This document shows, in pieces, positions 23,283-38,892 of a stretch of 64,000 bases of DNA. Each line of letters starts with the position of its first letter. Within the stretch, counting starts at the first letter, position 1. The position numbers and the translations under genes were made by a program. Source of the DNA: a virus. The notes under the pieces were generated by a model. That model was not told where the DNA came from. It saw only the letters and a program-made list of their open reading frames with translations, and did not search any database. The stretch covers positions 2,909-66,908 of the IMG/VR virus record IMGVR_UViG_3300027963_000071; one strand, 5' to 3'.

Positions 23283-24157
23283 TGTTTTATTGTAGCAGAG
23301 CGTAGCCAACTTGTCAAGTTTCGTTTCAATGCTTTGGTGTCTTTCTTCTGTTGCATCAGAGCCATCATTTCCAAATTCAGTTCTTCGGCGCAGAATTTGG
23401 CATCGCTCATCACTTGATCATCGAATATGTTTTCAATAAATTCTGGCTGTGTAAGATCCAACACCCTGTCGTTTTTCAAACTGTCGGCGATCAAAGCAGC
23501 CAATATCTTGTGATTGCTCAGGGTCAAATGATTGTATCTAGGATCAAACCCAGCAAAATACTCTGTAGTGGTGTTGTCTGTTCTTGTTTCTTCAGGGAAT
23601 TCTCGATTCTGTAGATCGTAAAGATTTCCCTGGGCAATGTTCAGCCCCTTGTAGACCTCAGCATCGTATAGATCAAATTCAAATGCTTTGATAACCAATG
23701 GACGACGAATACCCCATTGATGTGTGGCCATGGCCAACCAGCCCAAGCGACTCAACTGCTGAATGGTGTCCAATCTAGGACGCTGTATTTCTTTCATGTA
23801 CAGCCGTATTGCCTGGCTCTGAGCCTCGGTGATGTGATCATCGAGATCTATGGTGTAATGCCCATTGCTGAGATCAGGTTTTGAGTCAACGTACCAATAC
23901 CTATTGGGATGTGTCAGCACCACAATCACATAGTCCTCGGGCTGTATCAGACCCTCGTGAAGCCAACGCTGTAGATACATCCAACAGTAGTCTTGGCTGA
24001 CTCCGTGCCAACTTTCATTTACTATTTTGACTGTGGTGCCCGTGTCGACGGTCAACAGTGCGGCAACCAATTCAGGCCAAATTCTAGGACGATCAATTGT
24101 TGTTCGAGGTTGACTGAAGCTGTCGCCAATGATCCATAGGGTGGGTTCTTTGTTCAT
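23279..24157 (-). CDS. SGNH/GDSL-like protein, paralog 3
   Basis: IIGDSF, LTHPNRYW, DPRYNHL. Confidence 0.6.
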   Translation of the reverse strand: MNKEPTLWIIGDSFSQPRTTIDRPRIWPELVAALLTVDTGTTVKIVNESWHGVSQDYCWMYLQRWLHEGLIQPEDYVIVVLTHPNRYWYVDSKPDLSNGHYTIDLDDHITEAQSQAIRLYMKEIQRPRLDTIQQLSRLGWLAMATHQWGIRRPLVIKAFEFDLYDAEVYKGLNIAQGNLYDLQNREFPEETRTDNTTTEYFAGFDPRYNHLTLSNHKILAALIADSLKNDRVLDLTQPEFIENIFDDQVMSDAKFCAEELNLEMMALMQQKKDTKALKRNLTSWLRSATIKQ

Positions 24158-24247
24158 AGCAATACTTATCGTAAACAGCTAGTTTAATGATTTTTCTTGA
24201 CAAGATATAAATATGCGTATATAATATTATAAAAGGAACTGCACGAA

Positions 24248-24685
24248 ATGCTAGAGAAAATCACAGAACTCACCGACGAACTATTGACCTTGCTCAAAGA
24301 CGATCCCGTTCGCCCTGAAATCCCTGCTGATTTCCGAGTGGATAAAAATTCCAGAGTCTATGTGCTCAAAGATGATGCCACTGGCCAACCTCTGGCAGTG
24401 ACCTGCGTGAAATTCCTTGAAGGTATTCCTTCCAGTGTGCAGGAACTGGCTGATGTTTGTGTACACAGTACCACTGCGGTGTTTTATACCATTTGGAGTT
24501 ATGCTGCGGGTTCAGGTCGCAGCTTGATCACAGCGGCCCAAGAAGATATCAAACAGACAGAACCTGAAGTCAAGACCTTCGTGACACTGAGTCCAAAAAC
24601 AGAAATGGCTCGACGTTTTCATCACAAAAACGGAGCCACTACCTATAGAGAAAATGCTGATTCAGTGAACTACGAGTATCACTGA
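24248..24685 (+). CDS. Conserved-looking phage protein, possible GNAT-like fold
   Basis: FYTIWSYAAGSGRSLI...TLSPKTEMARRFH. Confidence 0.45.
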   Translation: MLEKITELTDELLTLLKDDPVRPEIPADFRVDKNSRVYVLKDDATGQPLAVTCVKFLEGIPSSVQELADVCVHSTTAVFYTIWSYAAGSGRSLITAAQEDIKQTEPEVKTFVTLSPKTEMARRFHHKNGATTYRENADSVNYEYH

Positions 24686-24897
24686 CTGCGAACCAGTTCG
24701 CTGCCTGGGCGATTGCCCACTGTGTATTCTTCTACTTCTGCTGTCCACAATGTGGTGTTGGTTTGAGCGCACTGCTTCTGTGCCAACTGTTCAGCTAACA
24801 GCCAAGCAGTTCTAAGATCAGTTACCACAGCGCCAGAGAGATCCTGTTGCTGTACACGAGTAGTTCCCAAACGGGCCATGATTTTGTATGCTTTCAT
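24679..24897 (-). CDS. Hypothetical protein
   Basis: 72 aa; GATAAATA late-type motif just upstream. Confidence 0.55.
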   Translation of the reverse strand: MKAYKIMARLGTTRVQQQDLSGAVVTDLRTAWLLAEQLAQKQCAQTNTTLWTAEVEEYTVGNRPGSELVRSQ

Positions 24898-24909
24898 ACA
24901 GTTATTTAT

Positions 24910-24963
24910 CGGGCAGCGTAATTTTGAGCGCGAAGCGTAAAACGTTTTTTTTACACGAAGTGT
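24910..24963 (+). repeat. Left arm of long-range inverted element, with GAA-loop hairpins
   Basis: CGGGCAGC-N10-GCGCGAAGCG-TAAAA, then ACAC-GAA-GTGT. Confidence 0.7.
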
Positions 24964-24977
24964 TAGCGCAGATTTTT

Positions 24978-25202
24978 TTAGTCGAATAAAGTGCGCACTA
25001 TTCTCGACTGTTCAGGATACTTGATCAACCATATGTCAGCGTAGAGACTGTTGTTAAACAGCAACCACCAGTCTGTAGGCACTGCCGCATTATACAGTTC
25101 AGTGTGTGCATAGCTACGAGGCCAATAACTGACCGCACGATTCCACCCTTGTAGTAAAGCGATCTGCGGTCGTTGAAACTGTTCTAGATACACTATAAGC
25201 AT
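24978..25202 (-). CDS. Hypothetical protein
   Basis: 74 aa; TAAATA upstream. Confidence 0.5.
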   Translation of the reverse strand: MLIVYLEQFQRPQIALLQGWNRAVSYWPRSYAHTELYNAAVPTDWWLLFNNSLYADIWLIKYPEQSRIVRTLFD

Positions 25203-25216
25203 ATCTAGTATTTAAG

Positions 25217-25801
25217 TTATTCGGGTAAGATACTGTAGTTAAAGGTCAATACATAGCGTTCTTCATGCTGTGTAGGACTTGTGCTAGAATGAAAGTGTGC
25301 GCCGTCAAAATCAGCCCAAAGATTAGCTTCGGGTGTGACACGCTCTGCTTCTGTATAAGTCTTAGGAACAGGATCGGGACGTGCATAGTCAGTGCGTTCA
25401 TTATAAACTATAGTATCACCGTCTGTAGGCATAACATAGTAAAGACCTGTACGATGTACAACACCTTGATCCACATGCGGGCTGTGTACCACTGGATAGG
25501 GTGTACGAGTGCAAAAACCGTAGCGTACACGATATACAGTATCCAGCTTCTGCCCCTGAGCATCTAATGCTGCCATTAATATATGAAAAGCGTTTTCCCA
25601 TAATGGACTTATAGGACCTACATCTGGCCCGTATATGGTATGACTGAACGATCCACGGTATTCTGCAATGTTGTCAAGATCCATATCACCCGCTGTAATG
25701 GGCATATAGAACCAATGGACGCCTAGATCAGCAAAACGTTGTACAACATAGCTTTGATGTGTATGTTTGAGTAAATTGGGTATTCGAGTGACTATAGACA
25801 T
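25217..25801 (-). CDS. 2OG-Fe(II) oxygenase-like protein
   Basis: PHVD, DGDT, FHSSTSP, RYVLTFN. Confidence 0.7.
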   Translation of the reverse strand: MSIVTRIPNLLKHTHQSYVVQRFADLGVHWFYMPITAGDMDLDNIAEYRGSFSHTIYGPDVGPISPLWENAFHILMAALDAQGQKLDTVYRVRYGFCTRTPYPVVHSPHVDQGVVHRTGLYYVMPTDGDTIVYNERTDYARPDPVPKTYTEAERVTPEANLWADFDGAHFHSSTSPTQHEERYVLTFNYSILPE

Positions 25802-25872
25802 AAGTGTATGATAAAGAATCCTATTAATAATATAACGACTACAATATAAGCTGGTCTCATACAGTAATTATG

Positions 25873-26103
25873 TTAGCAGTCAGCATCACCTATCGGTTCT
25901 GGATCTTGAACAGGATGACAGTGTTCAGCCCAGCGTAGAGCAAAGTCTGTGTAGAGTGGTGCGCCTAATGGGACCCAAAAGCGTGTGCGATTGAGATGTA
26001 TTTCATACAGTATGTTATGGTGTTGTATCCACTCAAGTACACCTACTGCATGAGCAGATTGATTGAGCACTGCATATTGCGCATGATTGGCCGGGTGTGT
26101 CAT
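25873..26103 (-). CDS. Hypothetical protein
   Basis: ATGA-coupled to 26100..26288. Confidence 0.55.
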   Translation of the reverse strand: MTHPANHAQYAVLNQSAHAVGVLEWIQHHNILYEIHLNRTRFWVPLGAPLYTDFALRWAEHCHPVQDPEPIGDADC

Positions 26104-26288
26104 ACTATTCCGGGACGAAACTCAATACAGTAAGCGCATATGGCTAGTACAACACATAAGACAATCCAAGCCCATTTGCTGATTGGACCTTCTACATCCT
26201 GTACACGATAATAGGCATCAAAGTCCGGATCATAGCGATACTGTTTACCACGTATTACTTCAATTTGATTATATTGATCATTGTTCAT
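26100..26288 (-). CDS. Small membrane protein
   Basis: C-terminal hydrophobic helix WAWIVLCVVLAICAY. Confidence 0.55.
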   Translation of the reverse strand: MNNDQYNQIEVIRGKQYRYDPDFDAYYRVQDVEGPISKWAWIVLCVVLAICAYCIEFRPGIV

Positions 26289-26653
26289 AGTAGTCTATCC
26301 GTTATACCAGTAATTAGTGGATCTTTCGATCCGTTTGCATTGATCCTGGCAATGTCTGATATGGCTGTTTCCAGTAGTTCTAATCGTTGTTGCTGTGTGT
26401 AGAATCGTTCTCGTAGAGAAGTTGCTTGTAATAAGCTGAGGATTTTACTGAGAATAATGGGGATCCAAGTGTGTGTCATACTTGTATATATAGCGACCAA
26501 ATGGGTCCTGCAGGTTAAAAAATCTGCTGCGTAAAAAATTTGGGTGGAGTACTTACAGATTCTGGGTGGTGAATTTAGACCACTAGCCGCTAAAATAGCT
26601 AGTACACACTAACATACACTATACCGGTCGGCCCCATACCGACCACCACCACC

Positions 26654-26878
26654 TCACCTCAGATGGTTGGTCCATGACCAGTACCGGAGATTCTCTGGGC
26701 TCATTCCCATCAACACACCTTCGTAGGCTGCGTAGGATATAGCCTTGAACTCACCGGCTTCCCACTTTGATCTAAAGGGATCTTTATTCAAGCGTCCAGC
26801 CTGCTGTTTAGCCGTGCGCTCTAGTTTATAGTAACGCTCTGCACGTCCGCTTGCTGTGTTGTATACGATGTATCCCAT
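26654..26878 (-). CDS. Hypothetical early protein
   Basis: AAAGGT RBS; YIVYNT..G...RYYK resembles 43631..43894. Confidence 0.55.
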   Translation of the reverse strand: MGYIVYNTASGRAERYYKLERTAKQQAGRLNKDPFRSKWEAGEFKAISYAAYEGVLMGMSPENLRYWSWTNHLR

Positions 26879-27061
26879 GCTACCTTTACTGCTGTGTTAC
26901 TCTAGTTACATCTAGGACTCTGATGTGGCTTACACTCTCTGCTCATACCACAGCACACATCATGGCTGCTGTTGTTGGGGATCTGATCCATGCCAATGCC
27001 CACACCGCCCTTGGGGTCCCAGGGTGCATCACGGCGATCCCCTAGTAGGCTACACGCTGCG

Positions 27062-27310
27062 TTAGCGCAGCATAGCAAGGCTAATACAGTCAGCCGCAGC
27101 GTCCTTGTATTCATCTAGTGCTCCTTCTTGTTCTAATGACTCTACCAATGCTATGTGCATAAGGCTACGGGCATCACAGCGATCCTTGTGCTGAGCTAGA
27201 CTATCCACTACTAGGTTAGCCTGCTCTAGACTGTCGCACATCCAAAGCACATCCATTATGGCCTTCTGCTTCTTTGTCAAGCCTTCGATGCGTATCATGT
27301 TATCGCTCAT
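27062..27310 (-). CDS. Hypothetical early protein
   Basis: 82 aa, coupled. Confidence 0.55.
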   Translation of the reverse strand: MSDNMIRIEGLTKKQKAIMDVLWMCDSLEQANLVVDSLAQHKDRCDARSLMHIALVESLEQEGALDEYKDAAADCISLAMLR

Positions 27311-27488
27311 CGTAGTAGGCCGCGCCCTTCAAGCCCAGGCTCCCGCACAGCATTGTGAGCAGTCCCACTATGGCGAACAGCATACAGCCCAACAGTTGCT
27401 CGTCGGCTGCTACTTCAATACCGCCCACTGCGCCCATTGTCATAATCAAACCTACGATCAGTACGAACATTGATTGCTTTGAAGTCAT
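27300..27488 (-). CDS. Small two-TM membrane protein
   Basis: Two hydrophobic helices; promoter at 27521-27549. Confidence 0.6.
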   Translation of the reverse strand: MTSKQSMFVLIVGLIMTMGAVGGIEVAADEQLLGCMLFAIVGLLTMLCGSLGLKGAAYYDER

Positions 27489-27545
27489 TTGCTTTCCTTT
27501 GTGTGTTTGTGTATGTGTTAATTATACTACCGTTTAGCCCGAATG

Positions 27546-27722
27546 TCAAGCAGTTTCTCGCTGTGCTTGCTTGACCAATTCGTGTGCCAAGTTCAGTGCC
27601 ATCATAGCTGCGACCATAGCGATCATGCGTTCCTGTCCCGAGAACTTCATGATCTGATCTTCCAGGGCCTGCATGGATTCTGGTGTGGCAAAGAAGTTGT
27701 TCTTTTGGATTGGGTTCTTCAT
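27546..27722 (-). CDS. 58-aa hypothetical protein (MKNPIQKNNFF...), not in the ORF track
   Basis: Own promoter and AGGA RBS; its TGA lies within the next TTGACA. Confidence 0.6.
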   Translation of the reverse strand: MKNPIQKNNFFATPESMQALEDQIMKFSGQERMIAMVAAMMALNLAHELVKQAQRETA

Positions 27723-27761
27723 GTGGGTTCCTGTTTGTTTGTGTATGTGTGTATTATATGC

Positions 27762-28055
27762 TCAAACGCCCAAACTGTCAACCAATAACCCTGCACTGTC
27801 TAGGTACTTTAGCTGTGTGTCTGCGGGCTGTTGCCAGAAGCGATCACCCTGCTTGACGGCCTCTATGACCCGAACGTGAATCTCGGGATAGGCCGCTACG
27901 ATTCTGCTGAATCGATTGTAGATCTCTTGCTGTTGCTCTTGGGTCAAACCATACTCGCTGCGTGTGCTGCGTACCTGGAAGGCCAATTGGTTGATCAAGT
28001 GATCGAGATCCTGGGTGGGCTGAGTCGTGCCCGATTTCAGTGTGTCAAAGGTCAT
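27762..28055 (-). CDS. Hypothetical early protein
   Basis: AGGAGCGA RBS. Confidence 0.6.
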   Translation of the reverse strand: MTFDTLKSGTTQPTQDLDHLINQLAFQVRSTRSEYGLTQEQQQEIYNRFSRIVAAYPEIHVRVIEAVKQGDRFWQQPADTQLKYLDSAGLLVDSLGV

Positions 28056-28074
28056 GTTCGCTCCTTGTTGCTGT

Positions 28075-28390
28075 TAGGCGGGGATGTTTGATAGAAATAA
28101 CAGTTTTGAACCTGCCCTACCGTGCCGTCCACGGACTTGTCTATCAACCACATTACACTCCAACTTGATCCGGCGTGCCTCGCCCTTTCGGGTCTGCTTT
28201 CGTGTTGCCTAGCAGTGCCAGTCCGTCAACTGGGAATCCACTAACTAGACAACCTACCGGAGTTGGTAACCCCTTATCTCATTACGCTTAGGCCGGGTCT
28301 CCAAACCCGCTTCGTATCCCTTGGCTACAACCCTTTTTGCATCACTGCGTGGGTTCTTGCATTTGAGGATCACCTTGCTTTCTAACTTGT
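28075..28390 (-). ncRNA. Candidate structured ncRNA or long leader (~310 nt)
   Basis: TTGACA-17-TACAAT promoter at 28395-28423, no ORF of 60 aa or more, several complementary helices. Confidence 0.55.
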
Positions 28391-28419
28391 CTCTATTGTA
28401 ACACCATTCGTCCAAACTG

Positions 28420-28650
28420 TCAACCTAGTGCTTTCAATAACCCTACAACACACAGGACTATTGCCACTCCATTTATAATCATCTGCGGCTTGTTCACCAC
28501 GCGATAACTCCAAGTAAAGAAGCACAGGGCACCTACCAAAGCCACTGCATTACGCAGGTTGTCATAGCCTGGAAAGAAGTTGCTTACGACATACATCGCT
28601 AGGATGAATGCTGTTCCTGTCCACTGTATTGCGTCATTTGTTTTGTTCAT
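28420..28650 (-). CDS. Small three-TM membrane protein (leaderless)
   Basis: MNKTNDAIQWTG start 6 nt after the -10 box; hydrophobic helices. Confidence 0.6.
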   Translation of the reverse strand: MNKTNDAIQWTGTAFILAMYVVSNFFPGYDNLRNAVALVGALCFFTWSYRVVNKPQMIINGVAIVLCVVGLLKALG

Positions 28651-28681
28651 GTGTGTATTATAACGCACTCTGTCCAAAATG

Positions 28682-28927
28682 TCAACCAATTTCCTGTTGT
28701 ATTTTAGCCACACCGTGTGCGAACTCATGTTGTGCCAAACGGTTGTGTCCCTGGATGGCTCGTTCCCGGGTAGGATACCGAGCAACCACGTTGCTTCTAC
28801 CGTTGCTGTAGAACAAGCAGGTTTCATACTGGTCCCCAGCAACAGCAGCCGAGTTCAACTTGACGGTTGATATCTCTACATCGCCAATGACGTTCAAGCT
28901 GATCTGTTTGGGCATAACGAAGTTCAT
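28682..28927 (-). CDS. Hypothetical early protein
   Basis: ISTV...YETCLF...RY. Confidence 0.55.
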   Translation of the reverse strand: MNFVMPKQISLNVIGDVEISTVKLNSAAVAGDQYETCLFYSNGRSNVVARYPTRERAIQGHNRLAQHEFAHGVAKIQQEIG

Positions 28928-29238
28928 GCTAGTTCTCCTAGTTCGATTGTGGGTTCTGGATAGCGGATCTCTCCGTCGTATTCCAGCTGGCTGCGTTCAA
29001 ACCAGCTGAGGTAATCGTCTGCTTCCACGTGGAAACCGATGATGGCAGTTGTGAAGTATTCATCATCGCGTTCGATCTGGCTGCGTACCATGTCTACGAT
29101 CTCTGAGGCATCTGCCCCGGCAGGAACATTTGTGATTTTATACGAGGATCCACCTTTGGCCTTCCAACGATAGGTACCGTCGAAACCTGTGTGGGCCGCG
29201 TAGTTCTCGTGATCCTGTGTGTCGATTACTATGATCAT
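28924..29238 (-). CDS. Hypothetical early protein
   Basis: TQDHENYAAH...WKAKGGS; GGAGCGA RBS. Confidence 0.65.
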   Translation of the reverse strand: MIIVIDTQDHENYAAHTGFDGTYRWKAKGGSSYKITNVPAGADASEIVDMVRSQIERDDEYFTTAIIGFHVEADDYLSWFERSQLEYDGEIRYPEPTIELGELA

Positions 29239-29301
29239 TGTCGCTCCTGTTATCTAACTATGTGCATAGTATAACAGGCATTAGCCAATTTGTCAACCAA
29301 T

Positions 29302-29691
29302 TTATGCGTTGTTTTTCTGCAACAGTTCAGCACCGTTGTTCTCGGATATCACCAGGCGAACATCTCGCATTCTGCTGGCGATAGATTTGACTAGATCATC
29401 CTGGTTAGCACCTTGCCCTAGGAACTCTTCAGTGTCTGTGCGGTAGGCAAACAGAACTCCCTGATGGCGCTCAACACGGATCTCAAGCACTGCCTTGGGC
29501 GGCTCTGCAGTGATGTCTGCGGGATTGATGCCATGGCGGATCATCACGTTCTTCAGTTGATCGGGCGTGATGTCCAATTCCTTCATCAGTTCGCTGAAGC
29601 TGATACGCATCCAGATGCTGACCAGCTTGCCTCCCACAAAGACTCCAAGGATGAAGATCAGGAGACCTTCTAAGAATGATTGTATGTCCAT
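29302..29691 (-). CDS. Membrane-anchored hypothetical protein
   Basis: N-terminal TM helix; TAAATA upstream. Confidence 0.6.
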   Translation of the reverse strand: MDIQSFLEGLLIFILGVFVGGKLVSIWMRISFSELMKELDITPDQLKNVMIRHGINPADITAEPPKAVLEIRVERHQGVLFAYRTDTEEFLGQGANQDDLVKSIASRMRDVRLVISENNGAELLQKNNA

Positions 29692-29710
29692 GTTGTTATT
29701 TAATTAATTC

Positions 29711-29968
29711 TTATTCGTATTCGTAAAATGTTACCGCTGGATCAAGTTGCTTCAACTCACGTGCGGCTGTGGTAAGTTGGCGATAGCGTTGCTTTACGGC
29801 ACTACGGCTCAGCTCACCATCACAGGTAAGGTTCTCTGGGCTTAGTTCGTTGTCGATCATCTCTGCGATACGCTGACGATCCTGTGCTGTGTCTAGGCTC
29901 ATTGCTGGGGAACCAAAGATGGCATTCCAGCGGTTCTTCTGATCTAGATAGGTGTTGAGGTTTTTCAT
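29711..29968 (-). CDS. Hypothetical early protein
   Basis: LSPENLTCDGE; promoter and GGAGCGA RBS. Confidence 0.65.
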   Translation of the reverse strand: MKNLNTYLDQKNRWNAIFGSPAMSLDTAQDRQRIAEMIDNELSPENLTCDGELSRSAVKQRYRQLTTAARELKQLDPAVTFYEYE

Positions 29969-30073
29969 TGTCGCTCCTAACTGTTAATATGTATATATTA
30001 TAGCATCTTTTGGCGAAGTTGTCAACCGCTGGACAGCGGGGCCAGTGTGGCATTTGCGCCACACCTTGTGCGT

Positions 30074-30451
30074 TTACAACTCCATGCTCGCCATGCCGTC
30101 CTCTTGCATGCCCTGCTCTGTAAACATAACCTCTGTACCTAACAGTGTGCTAATCGCATCTGCAAAGCCCGTGTCTGTATACAGTCTCCAGCTGTCCTCA
30201 TACTCTGTGTCGCCGTTAACATTGTAGCACACTGTAATGTGTATGCTACTGTCGCCGTCCAATTCGTCCCACCATTGCTCGTGTATGTGTATGCTTGTAA
30301 CTGTAACTGCCTCTAGCTCGCAGTCCCATATACTGTCACCTGCAAGTTGCACCTCTACGTTGCAGTCGTATGTTGTGCTAATGCTGTCTTCGCTAGTGTC
30401 TGTACCTGCTAGTGTCAGTTTGTCGCTAACATTAAATTGTGTTGCTTGCAT
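30074..30451 (-). CDS. Acidic proline-free early protein
   Basis: 125 aa, D/E-rich, GGAGAG RBS. Confidence 0.65.
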   Translation of the reverse strand: MQATQFNVSDKLTLAGTDTSEDSISTTYDCNVEVQLAGDSIWDCELEAVTVTSIHIHEQWWDELDGDSSIHITVCYNVNGDTEYEDSWRLYTDTGFADAISTLLGTEVMFTEQGMQEDGMASMEL

Positions 30452-30608
30452 ATTGCTCTCCTACTAATTCCCAACCGTTTAACTCCGTAGCACACACGTC
30501 GTCTGCGTTAACTTCTATCTCGTCCGCCGCAACGTCTGCCGCCTCTTGTGTATCTGCATCTACGTGCAAATAAAATGTTTGTGTTTGCTTGTATACAAAT
30601 GTTGCCAT
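30432..30608 (-). CDS. 58-aa acidic protein (MATFVYKQTQTF...), not in the ORF track
   Basis: TAGGAG RBS; no Pro. Confidence 0.6.
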   Translation of the reverse strand: MATFVYKQTQTFYLHVDADTQEAADVAADEIEVNADDVCATELNGWELVGEQYASNTI

Positions 30609-30617
30609 GTTGTGCTC

Positions 30618-30773
30618 CTAATCTACGTAATATTCTACAGTTTGTGTTAGTGTGCTAAGTGCACCTTCTACTTCCGCAAAACAACTTAGCTGTGCAAGTT
30701 GCTCGCCGTCTAGTGTTGCCTCTAACAGCATTTCCTCTACTTCCGCTAGCTTTGCAAGTATTGCGTCTCTCAT
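30618..30773 (-). CDS. 51-aa acidic helical protein (MRDAILAKLAEVEEM...), not in the ORF track
   Basis: AAGGGA RBS; no Pro. Confidence 0.6.
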   Translation of the reverse strand: MRDAILAKLAEVEEMLLEATLDGEQLAQLSCFAEVEGALSTLTQTVEYYVD

Positions 30774-30783
30774 TGTGTGTCCC

Positions 30784-30945
30784 TTATGCTACTGCTTTGT
30801 AAACTGTTACTGTAGTGTCTGCAAAATCTGCATGTGCATTGTAAAACGCTTGTGCTCGTGCAATAGCGTCTTCTGCGCTAGTTGCTTTTACTACGCACAA
30901 ATCTTCTATGTTGTCGTAGCGCAAATAAACTGTGTATTTCTGCAT
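30784..30945 (-). CDS. 53-aa protein (MQKYTVYLRYDN...)
   Basis: AAAGGA RBS, own promoter; no Pro. Confidence 0.6.
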   Translation of the reverse strand: MQKYTVYLRYDNIEDLCVVKATSAEDAIARAQAFYNAHADFADTTVTVYKAVA

Positions 30946-31019
30946 TGTGTTTCCTTTACTGCTTAAAAACGTATTATAGCACACTTGCATCCAAAATGCA
31001 AGTGTTGTGCTAATAACCC

Positions 31020-31286
31020 TTACGCTAAGTCTGCTTTTACACGTACATACTGTCCGCCAAATGTGTATGTTGCAAAGTTGCTTGCAACACCTGTGCGTGT
31101 TACTTCGTTTGCACAAGTAGCACGTAAGTAGTTTGCTAACGTGTCCGCCGCCTGTGCATCTCTAAAACAAAATACTACTGTACGTCTTTTGCTTGCTTTG
31201 TTTTTAGTTGTCCTGTCCGTATAACTTGCGCTTACGCTAGTTACGTTACGTGCTAATGCACGTATTTGCTTTGTGTTAAACAACAT
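31020..31286 (-). CDS. 88-aa basic protein (MLFNTKQIRA...)
   Basis: AAGGAG RBS, own promoter; no Pro. Confidence 0.6.
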   Translation of the reverse strand: MLFNTKQIRALARNVTSVSASYTDRTTKNKASKRRTVVFCFRDAQAADTLANYLRATCANEVTRTGVASNFATYTFGGQYVRVKADLA

Positions 31287-31366
31287 ACTGCTCCTTTTAC
31301 TGCTTAAAAAACAATTATAGCACACAATTGCATTTTGGGCAAATTATGTGCTAATACTGTACTAAA

Positions 31367-31618
31367 TTACTCTACTATTACAATGTTGTTTGTGCGCAAC
31401 ATCTTTTGTGCTGTTATAATTGTGCGTTGCACCTCTGCATCTATGTTATCTGCAAGCAAATCTCCGCTTACATAGTTACATTGCTTTTGTACAGGAAAAC
31501 GCATTTTATAGTTAGTACCTACTAACTCTTTGTGTACGTTAAATGCAATTTGCATTTTGTAGGAATTAAGTTTTTTATTGTAAACTAGTTTTGCGTATGC
31601 TATGCACTGTGTTAACAT
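31367..31618 (-). CDS. Hypothetical early protein
   Basis: AAAGGA RBS; promoter at 31648-31676. Confidence 0.6.
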   Translation of the reverse strand: MLTQCIAYAKLVYNKKLNSYKMQIAFNVHKELVGTNYKMRFPVQKQCNYVSGDLLADNIDAEVQRTIITAQKMLRTNNIVIVE

Positions 31619-31678
31619 TGTGTGTCCTTTTGTGTGTGTAAGCATGTATTATAACGCACTTTGTCCAAAATGTCAACC

Positions 31679-31708
31679 AAAAAAAAAGACCCTACGTAAT
31701 GTAGGGCC
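31679..31708 (-). terminator. Intrinsic terminator, overlapping an ACCC-N11-GGG operator-like site
   Basis: GGCCCTAC-ATTAC-GTAGGGTC followed by a T run. Confidence 0.65.
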
Positions 31709-31738
31709 TTTCAAAGCCTAGATTCGGGAGCGAACCGT

Positions 31739-32044
31739 TTAGGCTGTTACAGCAGCCTTCACTGGAGCTGCTTGTTTAACCACGGGCGCAGCCTCGGGGT
31801 TTTTCTTGGCTACGTAAGCAATTGCGTCTGCAACAGCTTTGCGGCCTTTGGCGTAATCAACGTCAACAAGGTGTTGAGCAATCTCGCCCTTAGTCATTTC
31901 ACGTGGAAGATCAATGAGATCCACGTCCTGGTGACCGTTCTTGGCCAGGATCTTGATGCGCATTGCATCGTTGGCGAAACGGATCTTAGTTTTACCGCTA
32001 AGTGTACTAACGCCTGCTACGCTAAATTTCTTTTCAGTTGCCAT
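31739..32044 (-). CDS. Basic hypothetical protein
   Basis: FSVAGVS...KIRFAND; GAGG RBS. Confidence 0.65.
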   Translation of the reverse strand: MATEKKFSVAGVSTLSGKTKIRFANDAMRIKILAKNGHQDVDLIDLPREMTKGEIAQHLVDVDYAKGRKAVADAIAYVAKKNPEAAPVVKQAAPVKAAVTA

Positions 32045-32132
32045 TTGTGTTACCTCTTTCTGTGTGTGTTTAAGTTAGCTGCACTAGCAGCATGTTATTA
32101 TTGTAGCATCAAACTACCAAATCGTCAACCAT

Positions 32133-32330
32133 TCATTTGTCCAAATTCATTGGTATCACTTGAATGGTTACCGACTCCTTCTCGTCCAGGGCAACGATGA
32201 ACTCGTCGTCATAGACCAGATCCTGCATACTCAAGTCAATCAGTTCCTCGACTCGAGTCAAATTGGGTGTACCCTCTCCCGCACAGGTAACCCTAAACGT
32301 GTATACATATTCTCTAGTCATTGTTAACAT
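32133..32330 (-). CDS. Hypothetical protein
   Basis: GAGG RBS, coupled. Confidence 0.5.
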   Translation of the reverse strand: MLTMTREYVYTFRVTCAGEGTPNLTRVEELIDLSMQDLVYDDEFIVALDEKESVTIQVIPMNLDK

Positions 32331-32625
32331 ACCTCTTGGTAAACCGATCCTTTGCCAACAGCAGTGTGGTCATTGCTACATCACGGGCATAGATCGAACC
32401 ATACTCATCCCAACCCCAAATCGGCACTTCACGACCTAGAGCCACAAACGCAGTTGCTTCTGATTCTCTACAGCCCGGACCGTAGTTAGCCCACATCCAG
32501 TTGCGATACTCTAAGAAGTTCATTTGCCAGTCTGTGGCCGTCTTGAACCCTTCGGGATCCGTTCTGTGGGTCCAATGGCCCCAGCCATTGAACCTACGAT
32601 CCAGCTTCTTTAGAGTCTGCCTCAT
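32314..32625 (-). CDS. Trp-rich hypothetical protein
   Basis: ATGA coupling. Confidence 0.55.
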   Translation of the reverse strand: MRQTLKKLDRRFNGWGHWTHRTDPEGFKTATDWQMNFLEYRNWMWANYGPGCRESEATAFVALGREVPIWGWDEYGSIYARDVAMTTLLLAKDRFTKRYVNND

Positions 32626-33251
32626 TCTGAAACCAAACCCAACTTCTTGTTCTGCTCAACGCCATCTTTGATCCACTCAGTGAGCTCTTCTTCTTGCTCA
32701 GCCTCGTATTCAGCCATGCATTCTGAGATACCAAAAGCCTCGTCAAGTTCTACGGGCAAGTCCTGTTCTACCTGCGATGAATTCATACCCTCTAGGTTGT
32801 AGTATTCATCATTGCCTTCTTCCCAAACACCGCAGTAGGCCATGCCGGGTTCGTAATACATTGCGCCTACAGTAAAGCCCATTGCAGTCAACTTCTCGTA
32901 GGCCGCGATCGGAGGGCTCCATGCTGAGTCGAAGTAGGTGTGTAGCATCTTGCCATCCGGATGCACATCAGTTGTGCTATCAGCACCCACATCCCACTTG
33001 GTGCCCCACTCGTTGACCTGATAGTCATACCAGTTGCCATAACCGTATTTCTCTACATTCTCAGCAGTCTTACGCTCGAGTTCTGCCTGCTCAACAGGAT
33101 CACCAACGGATCCCGCGACTATCTGCAGATCCTTCGGCACTGGAATAAACTCACTCAGGAACTCTCCACGCTCAAGGGCCTCAGCGGCTCGCTTGATCAT
33201 TGCAGGGTCTTCGTGTTGCAGTGTTAAGTTGTTGTTGCACCAATTTGGCAT
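32622..33251 (-). CDS. YubB/DUF1281-like ferredoxin-fold protein
   Basis: MPNWCNNNL, WGTKWD, FDSAWSPP, YYEPG. Confidence 0.7.
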   Translation of the reverse strand: MPNWCNNNLTLQHEDPAMIKRAAEALERGEFLSEFIPVPKDLQIVAGSVGDPVEQAELERKTAENVEKYGYGNWYDYQVNEWGTKWDVGADSTTDVHPDGKMLHTYFDSAWSPPIAAYEKLTAMGFTVGAMYYEPGMAYCGVWEEGNDEYYNLEGMNSSQVEQDLPVELDEAFGISECMAEYEAEQEEELTEWIKDGVEQNKKLGLVSE

Positions 33252-33306
33252 AGTTCGCTCCTATGTGTTGTTAATATGTTTATTATACAGTCATTTGGAC
33301 AAAAAG

Positions 33307-33624
33307 TCAACCATGTTCTGCCAAGTGTTTGCAGGTACCTCGATAAGTGTATCCTGGGCAAGAGCAGGTTTTTGCGTCTGGGTCGACTGTGTAGACTTGA
33401 CCCTTAGAACCAGTGATTGTGATTGCATTTGATTTACTTTCTTTAAATGGATTTGGTTTAACTGCTTCAAACTGTCTGCCTCGCTTGTCGAAGCCTTTGA
33501 TTCCCTTCTTGAAGTAGATGGGACTCCGTGTGCCAGCCTTAATGTAGGCTACCAGTGTTGTCCCATCTAGGAGATAGACATGAGGGTGAAACTGTCCCCC
33601 AGTGGTTTCTCTCAACGCTTCCAT
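33307..33624 (-). CDS. SWIM zinc-finger protein
   Basis: YTV...CSCPGYTYRGTCKH. Confidence 0.75.
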   Translation of the reverse strand: MEALRETTGGQFHPHVYLLDGTTLVAYIKAGTRSPIYFKKGIKGFDKRGRQFEAVKPNPFKESKSNAITITGSKGQVYTVDPDAKTCSCPGYTYRGTCKHLAEHG

Positions 33625-33872
33625 CAGGAGTAATCCTTACGATCGCCGTAGAGTTCGTTGTAGGTGTATCCTGCTTGATACTCTGCTACTTCTTCAGCAG
33701 TCAGCGACTCAACACGGGCACCACTGTTGCCACCCACACCACCATAGTGCGGATCACGTGATCGACCGTAGTATGAATCGGCACTGCCACGATCAAACAG
33801 GCAACCGTGTTGCTTACGGTCCCACTGCCATCCCTTAAGGATCTTTAAAACTCTTTCTTGTTCTTCAATCAT
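33624..33872 (-). CDS. Hypothetical early protein
   Basis: FDRGSADSYYGR. Confidence 0.6.
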   Translation of the reverse strand: MIEEQERVLKILKGWQWDRKQHGCLFDRGSADSYYGRSRDPHYGGVGGNSGARVESLTAEEVAEYQAGYTYNELYGDRKDYS

Positions 33873-33910
33873 CTTCGCTCCTAACTATTCACTATACCTA
33901 TAGTATAACA

Positions 33911-34153
33911 TCAAACATCCAAACTGTCAACCGATTTGTAGTCTTTAACCATGACGTATAAAGGGTCAATACATTCCTTGCTTTCCACCACGTAGTTGTC
34001 ATCGTACCAATCGAGGAACTCTAGATCCGGGCCCTCAGCTTCGCAGTTGCCGGCTTTCTCTATGGCTTCTTCTTCGGTGTCAGCTTCGACCCAATAGGTT
34101 TCACACGTGATGCTTCTTCGGTATAGTTCGAATTTGAATTTCGGCATGAACAT
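33911..34153 (-). CDS. Acidic hypothetical early protein
   Basis: VEADTEEEAIEKA motif. Confidence 0.6.
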   Translation of the reverse strand: MFMPKFKFELYRRSITCETYWVEADTEEEAIEKAGNCEAEGPDLEFLDWYDDNYVVESKECIDPLYVMVKDYKSVDSLDV

Positions 34154-34219
34154 TCCTTATTGTCTATACCCATAGTATAGCACCAAAATGTCAAGTTGTC
34201 AATCGGTTTGGAAAAGACC

Positions 34220-34546
34220 CTACGAACGTCTGGGTTTTAGTAGAGCTGAAGCTTCTTTGCGTAGCCTGCCCGCTTCCTTATACATCGCGTCTGCTGTTTC
34301 CTTCATGACGTCGGAACGTGCTCGTGCCAGTTTGCCACCCCCGAACTCTCGCTCAACGTAGTAGCGGATCAAGCTATGCTGGATCATAGTAGGTAGATCC
34401 ATACCATGATCCTCTGGGCAGATAAAACGGACAGGGCTCATGCCCCATCCGCCGTATTCTAGAAACTCTGCATAATATCTACGGTGATCCTTATTGCTAG
34501 GATCAAATGCCACTAACGGACGTGCTAGATATTCCAGTTTGCTCAT
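34220..34546 (-). CDS. Hypothetical protein
   Basis: FDPSNKDHRRYY; TATAAATA just upstream. Confidence 0.6.
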   Translation of the reverse strand: MSKLEYLARPLVAFDPSNKDHRRYYAEFLEYGGWGMSPVRFICPEDHGMDLPTMIQHSLIRYYVEREFGGGKLARARSDVMKETADAMYKEAGRLRKEASALLKPRRS

Positions 34547-34547
34547 A

Positions 34548-34724
34548 TCAACTATTTATAGTCCCGTGTGGGCTGTATTCATCGCCCTCGTCGACATGTG
34601 TGTCTTGGAGCCAATCGTATACCAAGCTCAATGGAATGCCCAAGTTGCGAGCGATAGATGTAGGATGCTCACCTTCGATATACAGTTGCTCGATATCGTA
34701 TGCTACTTCTTTCAACATGCTCAT
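34548..34724 (-). CDS. Small helix-turn-helix protein, not in the ORF track
   Basis: LYIEGEHPTSIARNLGIPLSLVYDWL HTH pattern; ATGA-coupled to a 42-aa membrane ORF at 34721..34849. Confidence 0.6.
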   Translation of the reverse strand: MSMLKEVAYDIEQLYIEGEHPTSIARNLGIPLSLVYDWLQDTHVDEGDEYSPHGTINS

Positions 34725-35236
34725 CGCGCAATCTCCACAGATTTCTCTTTAACAGTGTCAACACCCTTGTCTAGCATACGTGCGATTCCAGAGAACCCCA
34801 CAGTTGCTAACACAAGCCCAAAGATTGTACCAAAGATAAATGCTCTCATGATTACTCCTCGAAGTTAGGTTGAGGTTGATTACGAAGGGCTCGTTTGTAC
34901 TTCCACATCGCGTACATCGTTTGAGGAATGCCAAGACGCCAAGCCCACATAACGTCCATGACAATCATACCTGCTAAGAATACTAAGATCATTTCCATAA
35001 CCGCTCCTATCTCTGTTAGTGTAAGTGTATTATAGCACCAATCTATCTAGATGTCAAGACCTAGATATACGCATACGTGTAGCAGCGGGGCCTAATAGCA
35101 GAGTGTGGCTTTTTAGCCACACCCCCTGGCACTCCTGTATAGGTGGGCACAGAGTTGGCACCGCGCATGGTTTTCTCTGTATTAAGGCTGTATCCTAGGA
35201 CAGTAAAGTTTTCCGCCAACAGCCACCCGTAGAACA

Positions 35237-36454
35237 TTAAGCCACTTCTTTCTCGTAGATAACAGTTTCGCCGAACGGTGCTTTGGCTTCTGTGTTACCT
35301 TTAACGATAAAGATTGTATCGCAGTAGTCCTCGTCACCCCAACTACCACATGGGTAGCCGTCTGTGAACATAATGAACTTCTTAGGAGTAATGCCGTTCT
35401 CTTTCATAAACTCCCAATTGGCTTCAAAGTCTGTGCCACCACCACCCTGAGGTTCATAGTCCATCAAGTCTTCACTGTTGTCATGTGTGATCTCTTGATG
35501 ATTGTAAATGGCTGTGTCAAAGCACCACAAGTTGATCTTGAAGTCTTCGTATTGATCCATAATGCCTTTGATCTCACCTAAGAAGGTTGAAGCATCCTCT
35601 TCGCCAATACTACCTGACATATCAATACCAATGCCTACGTCAATTGTAGTTGCTTCCTTCATGCCTGGAAGGATTGCGCCACAGTGAGCACTCTTACGAT
35701 TGAAACGCTGGAAGGAGAAGTCATTACGCACAATGCTCTGGATCTCTTGACGAACCAATTGACGCCAATCCATCTTAGGCTCTGTCATGTCTTTGATCAT
35801 ACGCTGGATTCCTGCAGGAACTTTGCCAGCACCAGCCGCCGCGGCACTTTGCACCATAGCCTGTTTGATCTCGTCACGGATAGCCTGTGCTTCTTCTTTA
35901 GTAAGGCTAGGCTTACCGCCGCTACCTTTGCCGTCTTTGCCTTCCTTGTCGCCAGCACCGGCACCTTCTTCTTCGTTAATGTGCTCGTCCAACAAGTCGC
36001 CCAGTTGCTGAAGCAGTTGTGGCATAGAGATCTTTTCTGCTTTCTCATACAATTGATCGTAGATCTCTTCCCAAGCCAAGCCGCGATATTTGTTATCTAA
36101 ACAGATCTTAACTTCAGTGATCTTCTCACCAATGCGTTCGTCTACAAGGATCTGGTTCACAGCGTAGTCTTGTGCTATGTTGCTGAGCTGACGATCGCGT
36201 GATCCAACACGACCAAAGTGATCAAAGATGCAGTGACATATCTCATGCCCAAAGAGGAACTCTAGTTTCTTTGTGCTGAGCTTCTTAACGAACTCTGTAT
36301 TGTAATAGAAGTCACGACCGTTAGTTGCCGCAGTAGGGCACCAGTCGTCTGCTTGGACTAAACGCATACGGGTTGCCATGTTGCCAAAGAACGGTGCTTT
36401 GAGCAATAAGCCGATACGGGCAGTTGTTAGTTTTTCTACGATTGGATCATTCAT
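35237..36454 (-). CDS. DUF2201-type putative metallopeptidase plus VWA-like domain
   Basis: PTAATNG, HEICH (HExxH), DMSGS MIDAS, GGGGTDF, FTDG. Confidence 0.85.
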   Translation of the reverse strand: MNDPIVEKLTTARIGLLLKAPFFGNMATRMRLVQADDWCPTAATNGRDFYYNTEFVKKLSTKKLEFLFGHEICHCIFDHFGRVGSRDRQLSNIAQDYAVNQILVDERIGEKITEVKICLDNKYRGLAWEEIYDQLYEKAEKISMPQLLQQLGDLLDEHINEEEGAGAGDKEGKDGKGSGGKPSLTKEEAQAIRDEIKQAMVQSAAAAGAGKVPAGIQRMIKDMTEPKMDWRQLVRQEIQSIVRNDFSFQRFNRKSAHCGAILPGMKEATTIDVGIGIDMSGSIGEEDASTFLGEIKGIMDQYEDFKINLWCFDTAIYNHQEITHDNSEDLMDYEPQGGGGTDFEANWEFMKENGITPKKFIMFTDGYPCGSWGDEDYCDTIFIVKGNTEAKAPFGETVIYEKEVA

Positions 36455-36567
36455 TGTTCGCTCTCCTTAGTATGTGTATATTATAGCATCGTTCTACACA
36501 TCTGTCAACCAAAAAAGGTGGACGGGCAAGCCCTGAGAAGCCCCCCGCCCGTGCTATGTTAGAGGTC

Positions 36568-37653: not shown

Positions 37654-37730
37654 TTTAAGACCTCTTTAAGTTTACGGGTTAAACAATTACTTTCTCAGTA
37701 TCATAAGTATAACACCAAATTGCTTTGCTG

Positions 37731-38360: not shown

Positions 38361-38438
38361 TCTCGCTCCTAATCTCTTAGTATGTGTCTATTATAACACT
38401 ATGTATCCAATTTGTCAACCAGGGAGTGCCGGCCAAGA

Positions 38439-38466
38439 AAAAAGGTGTTGTATTTCTACAACACCC
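38439..38466 (-). terminator. Intrinsic terminator, also a class A operator palindrome
   Basis: GGTGTTGT-AGAAAT-ACAACACC followed by a T run. Confidence 0.65.
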
Positions 38467-38516
38467 TCAAAAGACTCCCCGGGAGCGAATCGGCTTGTCT
38501 GTTTGAAACGGTTACT

Positions 38517-38798: not shown

Positions 38799-38892
38799 TT
38801 GCCTTTTTCCTTTATTGTTATAGCTGAAGTTCATCAGCATTTTATTAGTATAAAGCCTTACCATTACCCTTGTCAAATCGCATATTACCGAT

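What the first reader, a model, noticed from the sequence alone, without database searches (positions are those of the whole stretch)
28075..28423. Promoter-driven ~310-nt structured RNA without an ORF
Seen: a TTGACA-17-TACAAT promoter fires into an ORF-free stretch in an otherwise gene-dense region. Minus-strand helices: AACCC/GGGTT enclosing GCA-GTGA-TGC; GGGT-TTGGAG-ACCC; long-range CCAACT..CCGG / CCGG..AGTTGG; CCAGT/ACTGG; CCC-GAAA-GGG GNRA loop; CTGCT/AGCAG; TTGATAGA/TCTATCAA. I do not recognise the family. Inference: a novel phage ncRNA (ribozyme, protein decoy or anti-defence RNA) or a riboregulatory leader of 27762..28055.
Basis: partly seen in the sequence, partly recalled or inferred. 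Interest (0 to 1): 0.72.

Follow-up and report, generated by a model that had tools for sequence, protein, structure and literature searches.

The report
Two new jumbo-phage structured RNAs
The gene-free stretch encodes two conserved, folded non-coding RNAs of an uncultured freshwater jumbo phage, and the larger one belongs to a previously undescribed RNA family that in related phages usually sits inside transfer-RNA gene clusters.

Summary
A near-consensus sigma-70 promoter (28423..28395, minus strand) fires into about 330 nt with no conserved ORF.

The stretch is two separate RNA genes, not one:
- **Module A** (28374..28291) is an 84-nt fold that starts just after a promoter in nearly every relative with enough upstream sequence.
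- **Module B** (28273..28080) is a roughly 190-nt three-way-junction RNA.

Module B evidence:
- A covariance model confirmed it in 170 phage-contig stretches besides the window.
- It is single-copy in 5 of 5 large phage records (112-383 kb).
- It was not confirmed in bacterial genomes.
- It has no Rfam match.
- Family-wide, 88.6% of cells pair, against 34-43% in slid controls.
- 59 of 105 relatives have a flanking tRNA gene, and 51 of those 59 are tRNA-Glu(UUC) or tRNA-Asp(GUC).
- 48 of 65 relatives close it with a 19-30 bp terminal stem.
- Metatranscriptome contigs cover it in 4 of 4 runs laid.

It is not a leader of the 97-aa gene. The function is unknown. My best guess is a processed, trans-acting stable RNA tied to the phage's tRNA or translation apparatus.

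The parts
28395..28423 (-). Sigma-70-type promoter: TTGACA (28423..28418), 17-nt spacer with TG-extended -10, TACAAT (28400..28395). The predicted start near 28388 is inferred.
   Evidence: A promoter stands at the same distance in 32 of 35 distinct module-A loci.
28291..28374 (-). Module A, an 84-nt structured RNA. It has a closing stem GGU/GCC, the helix AUCCU/GGGAU, the helix AACCC/GGGUU enclosing the GCA-GUGA-UGC hairpin, and the hairpin CGGGU-UUGGAG-ACCCG.
   Evidence: Alignment A6 of 37 sequences: 24 predicted pairs, 6 with compensatory changes and almost no broken pairs. Found in 46 viral stretches. Single copy in G000, G001 and G003. No Rfam match.
28274..28290 (-). Linker between modules A and B. 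In relatives this position holds the 5' strand of a long P1 stem; here that strand is degenerate.
28080..28273 (-). Module B, a 194-nt three-way-junction RNA (P1 to P8).
   Evidence: Model R1 scores the window copy at 222 bits, E 9e-67. Covariation. RNA-library contigs lie on it in 4 of 4 runs.
28270..28273 (-). P1 5' strand (GGGG), pairing with CCCC at 28083..28080. Only 4 bp here; 19-30 bp in 48 of 65 relatives.
28256..28269 (-). 5' strands of P2 (UUA, invariant) and P3a/P3b (CCAACU, CCGGU). The partners are at 28153..28155 (UAA), 28160..28165 and 28170..28174.
   Evidence: P3 pairs are 94-100% paired with 3-5 pair types. A GGUUAAC variant with a compensating G-to-U change fixes the register of P3a. 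P2 never varies, so it is unproven.
28204..28253 (-). P4, a long irregular hairpin whose tip is CCAGUU-GACG-GACUGG.
   Evidence: Helices 5-7 are 94-95% paired and 13 of 14 pairs show compensatory changes. Tip loop is GACG in at least 47 and GCCG in 35 of 115 sequences.
28198..28203 (-). J4/5, the conserved single strand ACGAAA. Family consensus is (C/U)A-N-GAA-R.
   Evidence: Present in 115 of 115 distinct full-length homologues. The 54 distinct sequences were collected without this motif in the search pattern.
28177..28197 (-). P5, a variable hairpin (CCC-GAAA-GGG) with a covarying outer G-C pair.
   Evidence: pair 91-129: GC 14, CG 3. Length is variable among relatives.
28084..28156 (-). 3' domain: conserved GUAAUG (28156..28151); P6 (28151..28140 with 28095..28084); P7 hairpin CCGUG-GACGG-CACGG (28134..28120); P8 hairpin GCAG-GUUCAAAA-CUGU (28115..28100), which is subfamily-specific.
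   Evidence: P7 is 97.7% paired with 5 of 5 pairs compensatory; P6 is 82-84% paired; the base of P6 switches GUG/CAU to GAC/GUU between subfamilies.
27762..28066 (-). RBS AAGGAG (28066..28061) and the 97-aa ORF (ATG at 28055), with no promoter of its own. It is read through from the RNA promoter but is not conserved as the RNA's neighbour.
   Evidence: No PHROG family.

Best explanation
The interval holds two independent, single-copy genes for structured non-coding RNAs of an uncultured freshwater jumbo phage. Here they are fused behind one host-type (sigma-70) early promoter.

Module B is the founding window copy of an undescribed family. It is a roughly 190-nt three-way junction: a terminal stem P1, arm I (P2-P3 carrying P4 and P5) and arm II (P6 carrying P7, with or without P8). 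Junction nucleotides are near-invariant (GGUUAC, UAGG, A-N-GAA-R, GUAAUG), and two hairpins are capped by GACG-type loops.

In relatives it is made either from its own promoter or as one unit of a tRNA operon. It is wedged between tRNA genes and closed by a terminal duplex of about 22 bp, which in tRNA-linked loci even includes the upstream tRNA's UACCA end.

Inferred, not shown: the precursor is cut out at P1 (by an RNase III-type cut plus tRNA-processing enzymes) to give an abundant stable RNA. This RNA acts in trans, most likely as a scaffold or decoy for a protein of the tRNA or translation sphere.

Module A is a second, promoter-proximal 84-nt RNA of unknown role.

My odds: real new structured RNA family about 0.95; trans-acting processed stable RNA rather than a cis leader about 0.8; protein-binding as the mode of action about 0.4.
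For: Shown:
1. Covariation. On a plain MAFFT alignment of 18 sequences, 94.3% of cells pair against 32-38% in slid controls, and 35 of 60 pairs are compensatory against 7-12. On 68 distinct model-aligned sequences, 88.6% pair against 34-43%, with a covariation score of 0.46 against 0.05-0.10. The top covarying column pairs in an unbiased scan all fall in model helices.
2. Strand. Invariant or frequent G-U pairs (for example U-G in 65 of 65 sequences) only pair on the minus-strand transcript.
3. Distribution. 87 model matches in 99 sources (the window plus 98 loci; never more than one per source), plus 84 matches covering 78 of 79 newly found loci and 6 of the 20 module-A loci searched.
4. Copy number. 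One copy in each of 5 of 5 phage records of 112-383 kb, three of them at least 96% complete.
5. Phage-only so far. 0 of 7 pattern hits in 185,579 species genomes were confirmed by the model.
6. No conserved ORF.
7. tRNA context. 59 of 105 loci have a same-strand tRNA gene flanking. All 23 upstream tRNAs end exactly 15 nt before the core.
8. P1 has 19-30 pairs in 48 of 65 sequences, median 22.
9. Its own promoter stands 15-35 nt upstream in 26 of 113 loci and 85-190 nt upstream in 57 of 113.
10. Expression hint. RNA-library contigs lie on module B in 4 of 4 runs from 4 studies. In run X20 the summed word depth is 148-679 over 28070..28203 against 0-11 on flanking genes. An identical 224-nt contig in X22 bridges modules A and B.
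Against: - The single-sequence fold is not significant (z = -1.2).
- No terminator follows module B in the window, so here the RNA is physically the 5' part of an mRNA.
- The window copy lacks the long P1 stem.
- Contig depths are a poor measure of expression, can sum several related phages, and DNA carry-over is not excluded (the tool's own caveats).
- Homologues were gathered with sequence patterns, so the 'invariance' of GGUUACC..UAGG and GUAAUG is partly circular. Three pattern-independent hits read GGUUAAC.
- Alignment A4 was fitted to the model and so leans towards its structure.
- P2 never varies, so it has no covariation support.
- No partner protein, processing site or activity has been observed. 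The mode of action is inference from anatomy and context.
Confidence: 0.6

Rival explanations
1. A trans-acting tRNA dock, working like a T-box. Codon-like triplets each followed by a purine (GAA-R in J4/5; GAC-G, rarely GAU-G, in the P7 loop and often the P4 loop) pair with the anticodons of tRNA-Glu(UUC) and tRNA-Asp(GUC). The RNA would hold, shield or deliver these tRNAs.
For: 51 of 59 tRNA-adjacent loci are flanked by tRNA-Glu(UUC) or tRNA-Asp(GUC), on either side of the RNA. GAA-R is present in 115 of 115 sequences. The commonest P7 loops found are GACGG (27) and GACGU (23), with AGAUGCG in 5 of 115; GAC and GAU are both Asp codons. That T-box specifiers are a codon followed by a purine is recalled, not tested.
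Against: - tRNA adjacency may be inherited gene order.
- P4 loops are also GCCG (35 of 115) and other sequences, with no matching tRNA pattern examined.
- A tetraloop is a poor codon presenter.
- There is no Rfam T-box match.
- 46 of 105 loci have no flanking tRNA.
Confidence: 0.1
2. An RNA-only homo-oligomeric assembly, as reported for the phage tRNA-island RNAs GOLLD and ROOL.
For: The genomic setting is the same: phage-borne, beside tRNA islands, with conserved ornate structure and no obvious protein partner (passages of PMC12286853 seen).
Against: It is 3-4 times smaller than those RNAs. No self-complementary loop pair was seen; GACG loops are not complementary to each other. There is no Rfam match to GOLLD or ROOL.
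Confidence: 0.1
3. A ribozyme, either self-cleaving or RNase-P-like, that helps mature the tRNA array.
For: It is wedged between tRNAs at a fixed 15-nt spacing, and conserved nucleotides sit in junctions rather than in helices.
Against: No match to any Rfam ribozyme or RNase P family at E up to 10. 46 of 105 loci are not next to a tRNA, and 26 of 113 are stand-alone promoter units. No pseudoknot signal appeared in the covariation scan.
Confidence: 0.08
4. A cis-acting leader or riboswitch controlling the downstream 97-aa gene (27762..28055).
For: In the window there is no terminator or promoter between the RNA and the RBS/ATG.
Against: The neighbour is not conserved. 0 of 4 homologues of the 97-aa gene have module B directly upstream. 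Downstream of module B lie tRNAs (55 of 110 loci), new promoters or unrelated genes. The gene is single-copy per genome.
Confidence: 0.03
5. Not an RNA. It could be a DNA-level element (protein-binding site or origin) or a decayed protein gene.
For: The weak single-sequence folding z-score. Short translated similarity between some copies, seen.
Against: Strand-specific G-U pairing and compensatory changes in 46 of 60 pairs. No conserved reading frame. Coverage by RNA-library contigs.
Confidence: 0.02

Closest known systems
GOLLD and ROOL RNAs (large ornate phage/prophage RNAs near tRNA islands)
   Same: They are phage-encoded, lie in or beside tRNA arrays, have elaborate covariation-supported structure, and have no known function or protein partner (passages of PMC12286853 seen).
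   Different: Module B is about 190-230 nt, against roughly 580 to over 800 nt. It has no sequence or structure match to the Rfam models. Oligomerisation is untested. It is found so far only in uncultured freshwater jumbo-phage contigs.
Stable non-tRNA RNAs of the phage T4 tRNA gene cluster (species 1 and 2; recalled from memory, not checked with any tool)
   Same: They are small stable RNAs co-transcribed and processed with phage tRNAs, with function unknown.
   Different: Sizes and hosts differ. This is a lead only.
Bacterial/phage Y RNAs (YrlA type) with Ro60
   Same: A long terminal stem is formed by the 5' and 3' ends. They are found in phages that also carry tRNA arrays and tmRNA (recalled).
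   Different: No TROVE/Ro60 gene in 5 of 5 phage records, while the control genomes rang. No Rfam Y-RNA match. No tRNA-like module was detected by ARAGORN.
T-box riboswitch
   Same: Possible codon-plus-purine triplets and a link to particular tRNAs. The 3' strand of P1 pairs with the upstream tRNA's ACCA end in cis.
   Different: It is not upstream of aminoacyl-tRNA synthetase or amino-acid genes, has no terminator/antiterminator, and has no Rfam match. The ACCA pairing is simply part of a sequence-independent 22-bp stem, since other loci pair whatever flank is present.
ncRNA001-004 of Pseudomonas jumbo phage PA5oct, the nearest isolate (DnaB-like helicase 50% identical)
   Same: A jumbo phage that depends on host RNA polymerase, with TTGAC/TATAATA promoters and highly expressed ncRNAs of unknown function (passages of PMC7318152 seen).
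   Different: Model R1 finds nothing in PA5oct or in phage Phosso. The ncRNA001 sequence shows none of the family motifs.

Membership tests
Any Rfam 15 family (4227 models) | A covariance-model match at or near the family's gathering score | tested here: not met
   The window at gathering threshold gives only a tRNA at 42319..42393. Window 27900..28600 at E up to 10 gives only snoRNA or c4-a1b1 fragments of 11-15 bits. L095 and L008 copies likewise give only the flanking tRNAs and noise. For 12 relatives' loci at gathering threshold, the 150 rows shown are tRNA or tmRNA; 34 lower-scoring rows were not shown.
tRNA / tmRNA | A cloverleaf or tRNA-like domain detectable by ARAGORN or Rfam | tested here: not met
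   ARAGORN finds one tRNA-Met elsewhere in the window and nothing at 28056..28423. Relatives carry separate permuted tmRNA genes.
Y RNA / Ro60 RNP | A Ro60 (TROVE) gene in the same genome, with a Y RNA nearby | tested here: not met
   PF05731 gives 0 of 5 phage records, while 2 control genomes rang. A host-encoded Ro60 cannot be tested.
GOLLD / ROOL | The family's conserved core structure (Rfam model) | tested here: not met
   No match. Only the genomic setting is shared.
GOLLD / ROOL | Homo-oligomeric RNA-only nanocage | not testable with these tools
   This needs native gel, SEC or cryo-EM.
T-box riboswitch | Stem I specifier plus an antiterminator T-box bulge, upstream of an aminoacylation-related gene | tested here: not met
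   No Rfam RF00230 match. Downstream genes are tRNAs, promoters or unrelated small ORFs. There is no terminator.
RNase P RNA / known self-cleaving ribozymes | Conserved catalytic core recognised by Rfam models | tested here: not met
   No match at E up to 10. Catalysis itself is not testable here.
Cis-regulatory leader / riboswitch | A conserved association with a particular downstream gene class, plus an expression platform | tested here: not met
   The downstream neighbour varies. There is no terminator-like site on the RNA strand.
New family proposed here (module B) | P1/P3/P4/P6/P7 architecture with GGUUAC, UAGG, A-N-GAA-R and GUAAUG | tested here: met
   The window copy scores 222 bits against model R1, and every helix is present.

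The most novel reading that the evidence does not exclude
Module B is a free-standing, phage-encoded tRNA-docking RNA. It would read the anticodons of tRNA-Glu(UUC) and tRNA-Asp(GUC) with displayed codon-plus-purine triplets: GAA-R in the junction and GAC/GAU-G in hairpin loops. These are the two tRNAs whose genes flank it in 51 of 59 tRNA-adjacent loci. The role could be to shield them from host anticodon nucleases or to marshal them for phage translation. That would make it a T-box-like principle used in trans by a virus.
Probability: 0.1. Interest if true: 0.9.

Novelty: new variant of a known kind. Interest (0 to 1): 0.72.

Why it matters
Phage tRNA islands are already known to harbour enigmatic ornate RNAs (GOLLD and ROOL) whose functions remain open. 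This adds a compact, roughly 190-nt, single-copy family with very clean covariation. It has at least 170 model-confirmed copies in jumbo-phage contigs, a tight link to tRNA-Glu and tRNA-Asp genes, and signs of high abundance in lake metatranscriptomes.

Its small size makes it tractable for structure probing, cryo-EM or crystallography, and pull-downs. It could therefore give the first handle on what non-tRNA RNAs in phage tRNA operons do.

The second element, module A, is a further unclassified RNA that consistently occupies the first 100 nt or so of an early transcript.

Tried and rejected
- **Single-sequence folding.** z = -1.2, uninformative.
- **DNA similarity to 50,697 GenBank phage records.** No match for the window stretch. 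Only the tRNA-Glu part matched for a relative.
- **RNAalifold on a mixed MAFFT alignment of 57 sequences.** It recovered only 11 pairs because the subfamilies misalign. I therefore worked by subfamily and with a covariance model.
- **Model R1.** It was built with my typing slip: the 3' strand of P1 and two P6 pairs were shifted by one column. It was used for searching only. All pair counts use the corrected structure.
- **Y RNA idea.** Rejected, no TROVE gene.
- **Homology to PA5oct ncRNA001.** Rejected.
- **Bacterial or prophage origin.** 7 pattern hits in genome contigs, none confirmed.
- **Pseudoknot search by covariation.** It found nothing beyond the model helices. Apparent extra pairs such as columns 21-273 are subfamily signatures.
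- **'Freshwater-1/2' motifs.** I recalled these as possible Rfam relatives, but a paper search found nothing relevant, and the Rfam scans cover this anyway.
- **Paper searches.** Searches found no description of this RNA. PMC10690425 lists 8,495 candidate RNAs of 29-151 nt from IMG/VR, but only in supplements.
- **The search of earlier findings.** It was closed.
- **Metatranscriptome gaps.** Parts of the window stretch without contig cover are not treated as evidence.
- **Not used.** Complex prediction, structure prediction and protein searches, because there is no protein to test.

Full report
**1. Where the window comes from**

The window is 64 kb of a 66.9-kb IMG/VR viral record that CheckV rates 16% complete, so it is a fragment of a jumbo phage. 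Its genes include a DnaB-like helicase, an ATP-dependent DNA ligase, an SF2 helicase and a MoxR-AAA/VWA pair. The nearest isolate by the DnaB-like helicase is Pseudomonas jumbo phage PA5oct, at 50% identity.

The minus strand between about 23 and 43 kb is studded with consensus TTGACA-17-TATAAT promoters. There are 26 sites in the window against 1.46 expected, and 23 of them are on the minus strand. This fits an early region read by host RNA polymerase, as reported for PA5oct (passages of PMC7318152).

**2. The observation**

The promoter at 28423..28395 is real, matching 11 of 12 consensus positions with a TG-extended -10. The 339 nt down to the ATG at 28055 hold only ORFs of 53 aa or fewer.

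Folding the single sequence gives nothing special: z = -1.2, and 10 of 100 shuffles fold as well. Rfam gives no family, either at gathering score or at E up to 10. By itself the stretch would therefore be unconvincing. The comparative data decide the matter.

**3. Two modules, not one RNA**

I found relatives through the flanking small proteins. They share different parts of the interval: some have bases 1-227, others have the promoter joined directly to bases 144-349 (alignment A1).

This splits the interval into two parts:
- Module A, 28374..28291.
- Module B, 28273..28080.

**4. Module B: size of the family**

- A motif pattern taken from A1 found 87 stretches in IMG/VR.
- Covariance model R1 confirmed 87 matches in 99 sources (the window plus 98 loci), never more than one per source.
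- It then confirmed 84 more matches. These cover 78 of 79 newly found loci, plus 6 of the 20 loci searched that had been fetched only for module A.
- That gives 118 distinct sequences.
- The model finds exactly one copy in each of 5 of 5 large phage records (112-383 kb, three of them at least 96% complete).
- It finds none in PA5oct or in phage Phosso.
- Seven pattern hits in one-genome-per-species bacterial and archaeal contigs were all rejected by the model.

**5. Module B: structure**

RNAalifold on a plain MAFFT alignment of the window's subfamily gave P1, P3a/b, P4, P5, P6, P7 and P8. I added P2 by hand.

| Alignment | Cells paired | Slid controls | Other measure |
|---|---|---|---|
| A3, 18 sequences, MAFFT | 94.3% | 32-38% | 35 of 60 pairs compensatory vs 7-12; 0 of 500 shuffles reach the observed values |
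| A4, 68 distinct sequences, model-aligned | 88.6% | 34-43% | 885 doubly changed cells vs 113-174; covariation score 0.46 vs 0.05-0.10 |

- A4 leans towards the model because it was fitted to it.
- An unbiased scan for covarying column pairs returned the model's own P3 and P4 pairs at the top, with up to six pair types and 95-100% canonical pairing.
- Between subfamilies, P3a changes CCAACU/AGUUGG to CCUAGA/UCUAGG to CCUACA/UGUAGG, and the base of P6 changes GUG/CAU to GAC/GUU.
- Frequent or invariant G-U pairs fix the transcript to the window's minus strand.
- No reading frame is conserved.
- P2 (UUA/UAA) never varies, so it is unproven.
- A GGUUAAC variant with a compensating G-to-U change shows that the sixth base belongs to P3a.

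Conserved unpaired elements:
- UAGG after P3.
- (C/U)A-N-GAA-R between P4 and P5, present in 115 of 115 sequences.
- GUAAUG at the three-way junction.
- GACG or GCCG tetraloops on P4 (at least 47 and 35 of 115).
- A GACG-containing loop on P7.

**6. Module B: genomic setting**

*Flanking tRNA genes*
- Of 105 distinct loci with both flanks readable, 59 have a same-strand tRNA gene next to the RNA.
- In 36 of these it is tRNA-Glu(UUC). In 15 more it is tRNA-Asp(GUC). In 8 it is another tRNA.
- All 23 upstream tRNAs end exactly 15 nt before the core.
- Relatives' loci carry dozens of tRNAs, and two of them carry permuted beta-type tmRNA genes.

*Terminal stem*
- The 5' and 3' flanks form a terminal stem of 19-30 pairs in 48 of 65 sequences, median 22.
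- The stem forms whatever the flank sequence is: a promoter-proximal leader, a spacer hairpin, or the upstream tRNA's UACCA end.
- The constant length of about two helical turns is what an RNase III processing stem would look like. That is inference.

*Promoters*
- A promoter stands 15-35 nt upstream in 26 of 113 loci and 85-190 nt upstream in 57 of 113.
- Several loci have the next promoter right after the RNA, or even overlapping it.

*The window copy*
- It is atypical. P1 is reduced to GGGG/CCCC, module A sits where the 5' strand of P1 would be, and there is no terminator before the 97-aa ORF.

**7. Not a leader of the 97-aa gene**

None of the four homologues of that gene has module B directly upstream. 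The RNA's downstream neighbours vary widely.

**8. Expression**

Six metatranscriptome runs held 15-19% of the sampled words of a 2-kb stretch around the RNA. I laid four of them, from four studies.
- All four have contigs on module B.
- In X20 the summed word depth is 148, 679 and 56 in the three bins over 28070..28270. It is 0-11 on the flanking genes and 0 on 27735..27935.
- An identical 224-nt contig in X22 spans 28116..28339, joining modules A and B.

The tool warns that contig depth is a poor measure, may sum related organisms, and that DNA can be present in RNA libraries. I read this as a hint of an abundant RNA, not as proof.

**9. Module A**

- A pattern found 46 stretches.
- In 32 of 35 distinct copies, a promoter's -10 element ends 53-59 nt before the anchor, so the fold begins about 10-15 nt after the predicted start.
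- It is followed by one of four things: module B (13 of 35, plus two with the GGUUAAC variant); an RBS and the ATG of unrelated genes; another promoter; or array-type spacers.
- Divergent versions head tRNA operons in L095 and L023.
- Of 24 predicted pairs, 6 show compensatory changes and almost none break.
- Model R2 finds one copy each in G000, G001 and G003 and none in G002 or G004.
- In G001 modules A and B lie 5.7 kb apart, so they are separate genes.
- Its role is open. Candidates are a small RNA, a 5' stabiliser or an antitermination element.

**10. Comparison with known families**

There is no Rfam family for either module in three divergent representatives.
- It is not a tRNA or tmRNA.
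- No Ro60 gene is present, so it is not a phage Y-RNA system.
- It does not resemble PA5oct's ncRNAs.

The closest kind is the set of phage tRNA-island RNAs, GOLLD and ROOL. These share the setting and the mystery but are far larger and unrelated in sequence. The recalled T4 species 1 and 2 RNAs are a further analogy that I could not test.

**11. Mechanism and verdict**

*Shown:* this is a conserved, single-copy, strand-specific structured RNA gene family of jumbo phages. It is frequently part of tRNA operons.

*Inferred:*
- Excision at P1.
- Stability and action in trans.
- A protein partner that recognises the invariant junction and the twin GACG loops.
- A link to tRNA or translation biology.

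The boldest reading still allowed is that the GAA-R and GAC-G triplets dock tRNA-Glu and tRNA-Asp. It fits the flanking-gene bias but could equally reflect inherited gene order.

The leader alternative is not.

The supplements of PMC10690425, which may list fragments of these RNAs, could not be read.

Noticed in passing
window 23289..43026, minus strand: There are 21 near-consensus TTGACA-17-TATAAT promoters, many with the same spacer start (TTGACAGTTTGG). Almost every small early gene has one of its own.
   Followed up: partly
L011/L020, L075, L081, L155, L165, L196, L216 (3' end of module B): In several relatives the -35 hexamer of the next gene's promoter (TTGACA in AGAUUGACAAUGGUUCC) lies inside the conserved 3' domain of the RNA. 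RNA gene and promoter therefore overlap.
   Followed up: partly
L093:1476-1864 and L095:11639-12008: Relatives carry permuted (two-piece) betaproteobacterial-type tmRNA genes beside arrays of dozens of tRNAs. This hints that the hosts are Betaproteobacteria.
   Followed up: no
L036, L038, L039, L042, L046, L049, L074 and others, upstream of module B: A recurring spacer (GTTCTTTAAAAA-like) and a hairpin (TATAGTG...CACTATA) separate units of the arrays. The hairpin's 3' half doubles as the 5' strand of P1.
   Followed up: no
window 27722/28068: One RNA-library contig (run X20) joins 27722 to 28068, skipping the whole 97-aa ORF. A related phage probably lacks that gene. The shorter side of the joint is only 28 nt, so it is weak.
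   Followed up: no
window 42316..42393, minus strand: A single tRNA-Met(CAT) gene with its own promoter. No tRNA array lies within this window.
   Followed up: no
window 35237..37653, minus strand: A MoxR-like AAA+ ATPase sits next to a DUF2201 metallopeptidase/VWA protein, forming a conserved pair in the early region.
   Followed up: no
L113, L123, L133 (downstream of module A): Module A is followed by another conserved ORF-poor stretch (CCTCCGCGACAACATAGATAAACACAC...). It may be a further RNA element.
   Followed up: no
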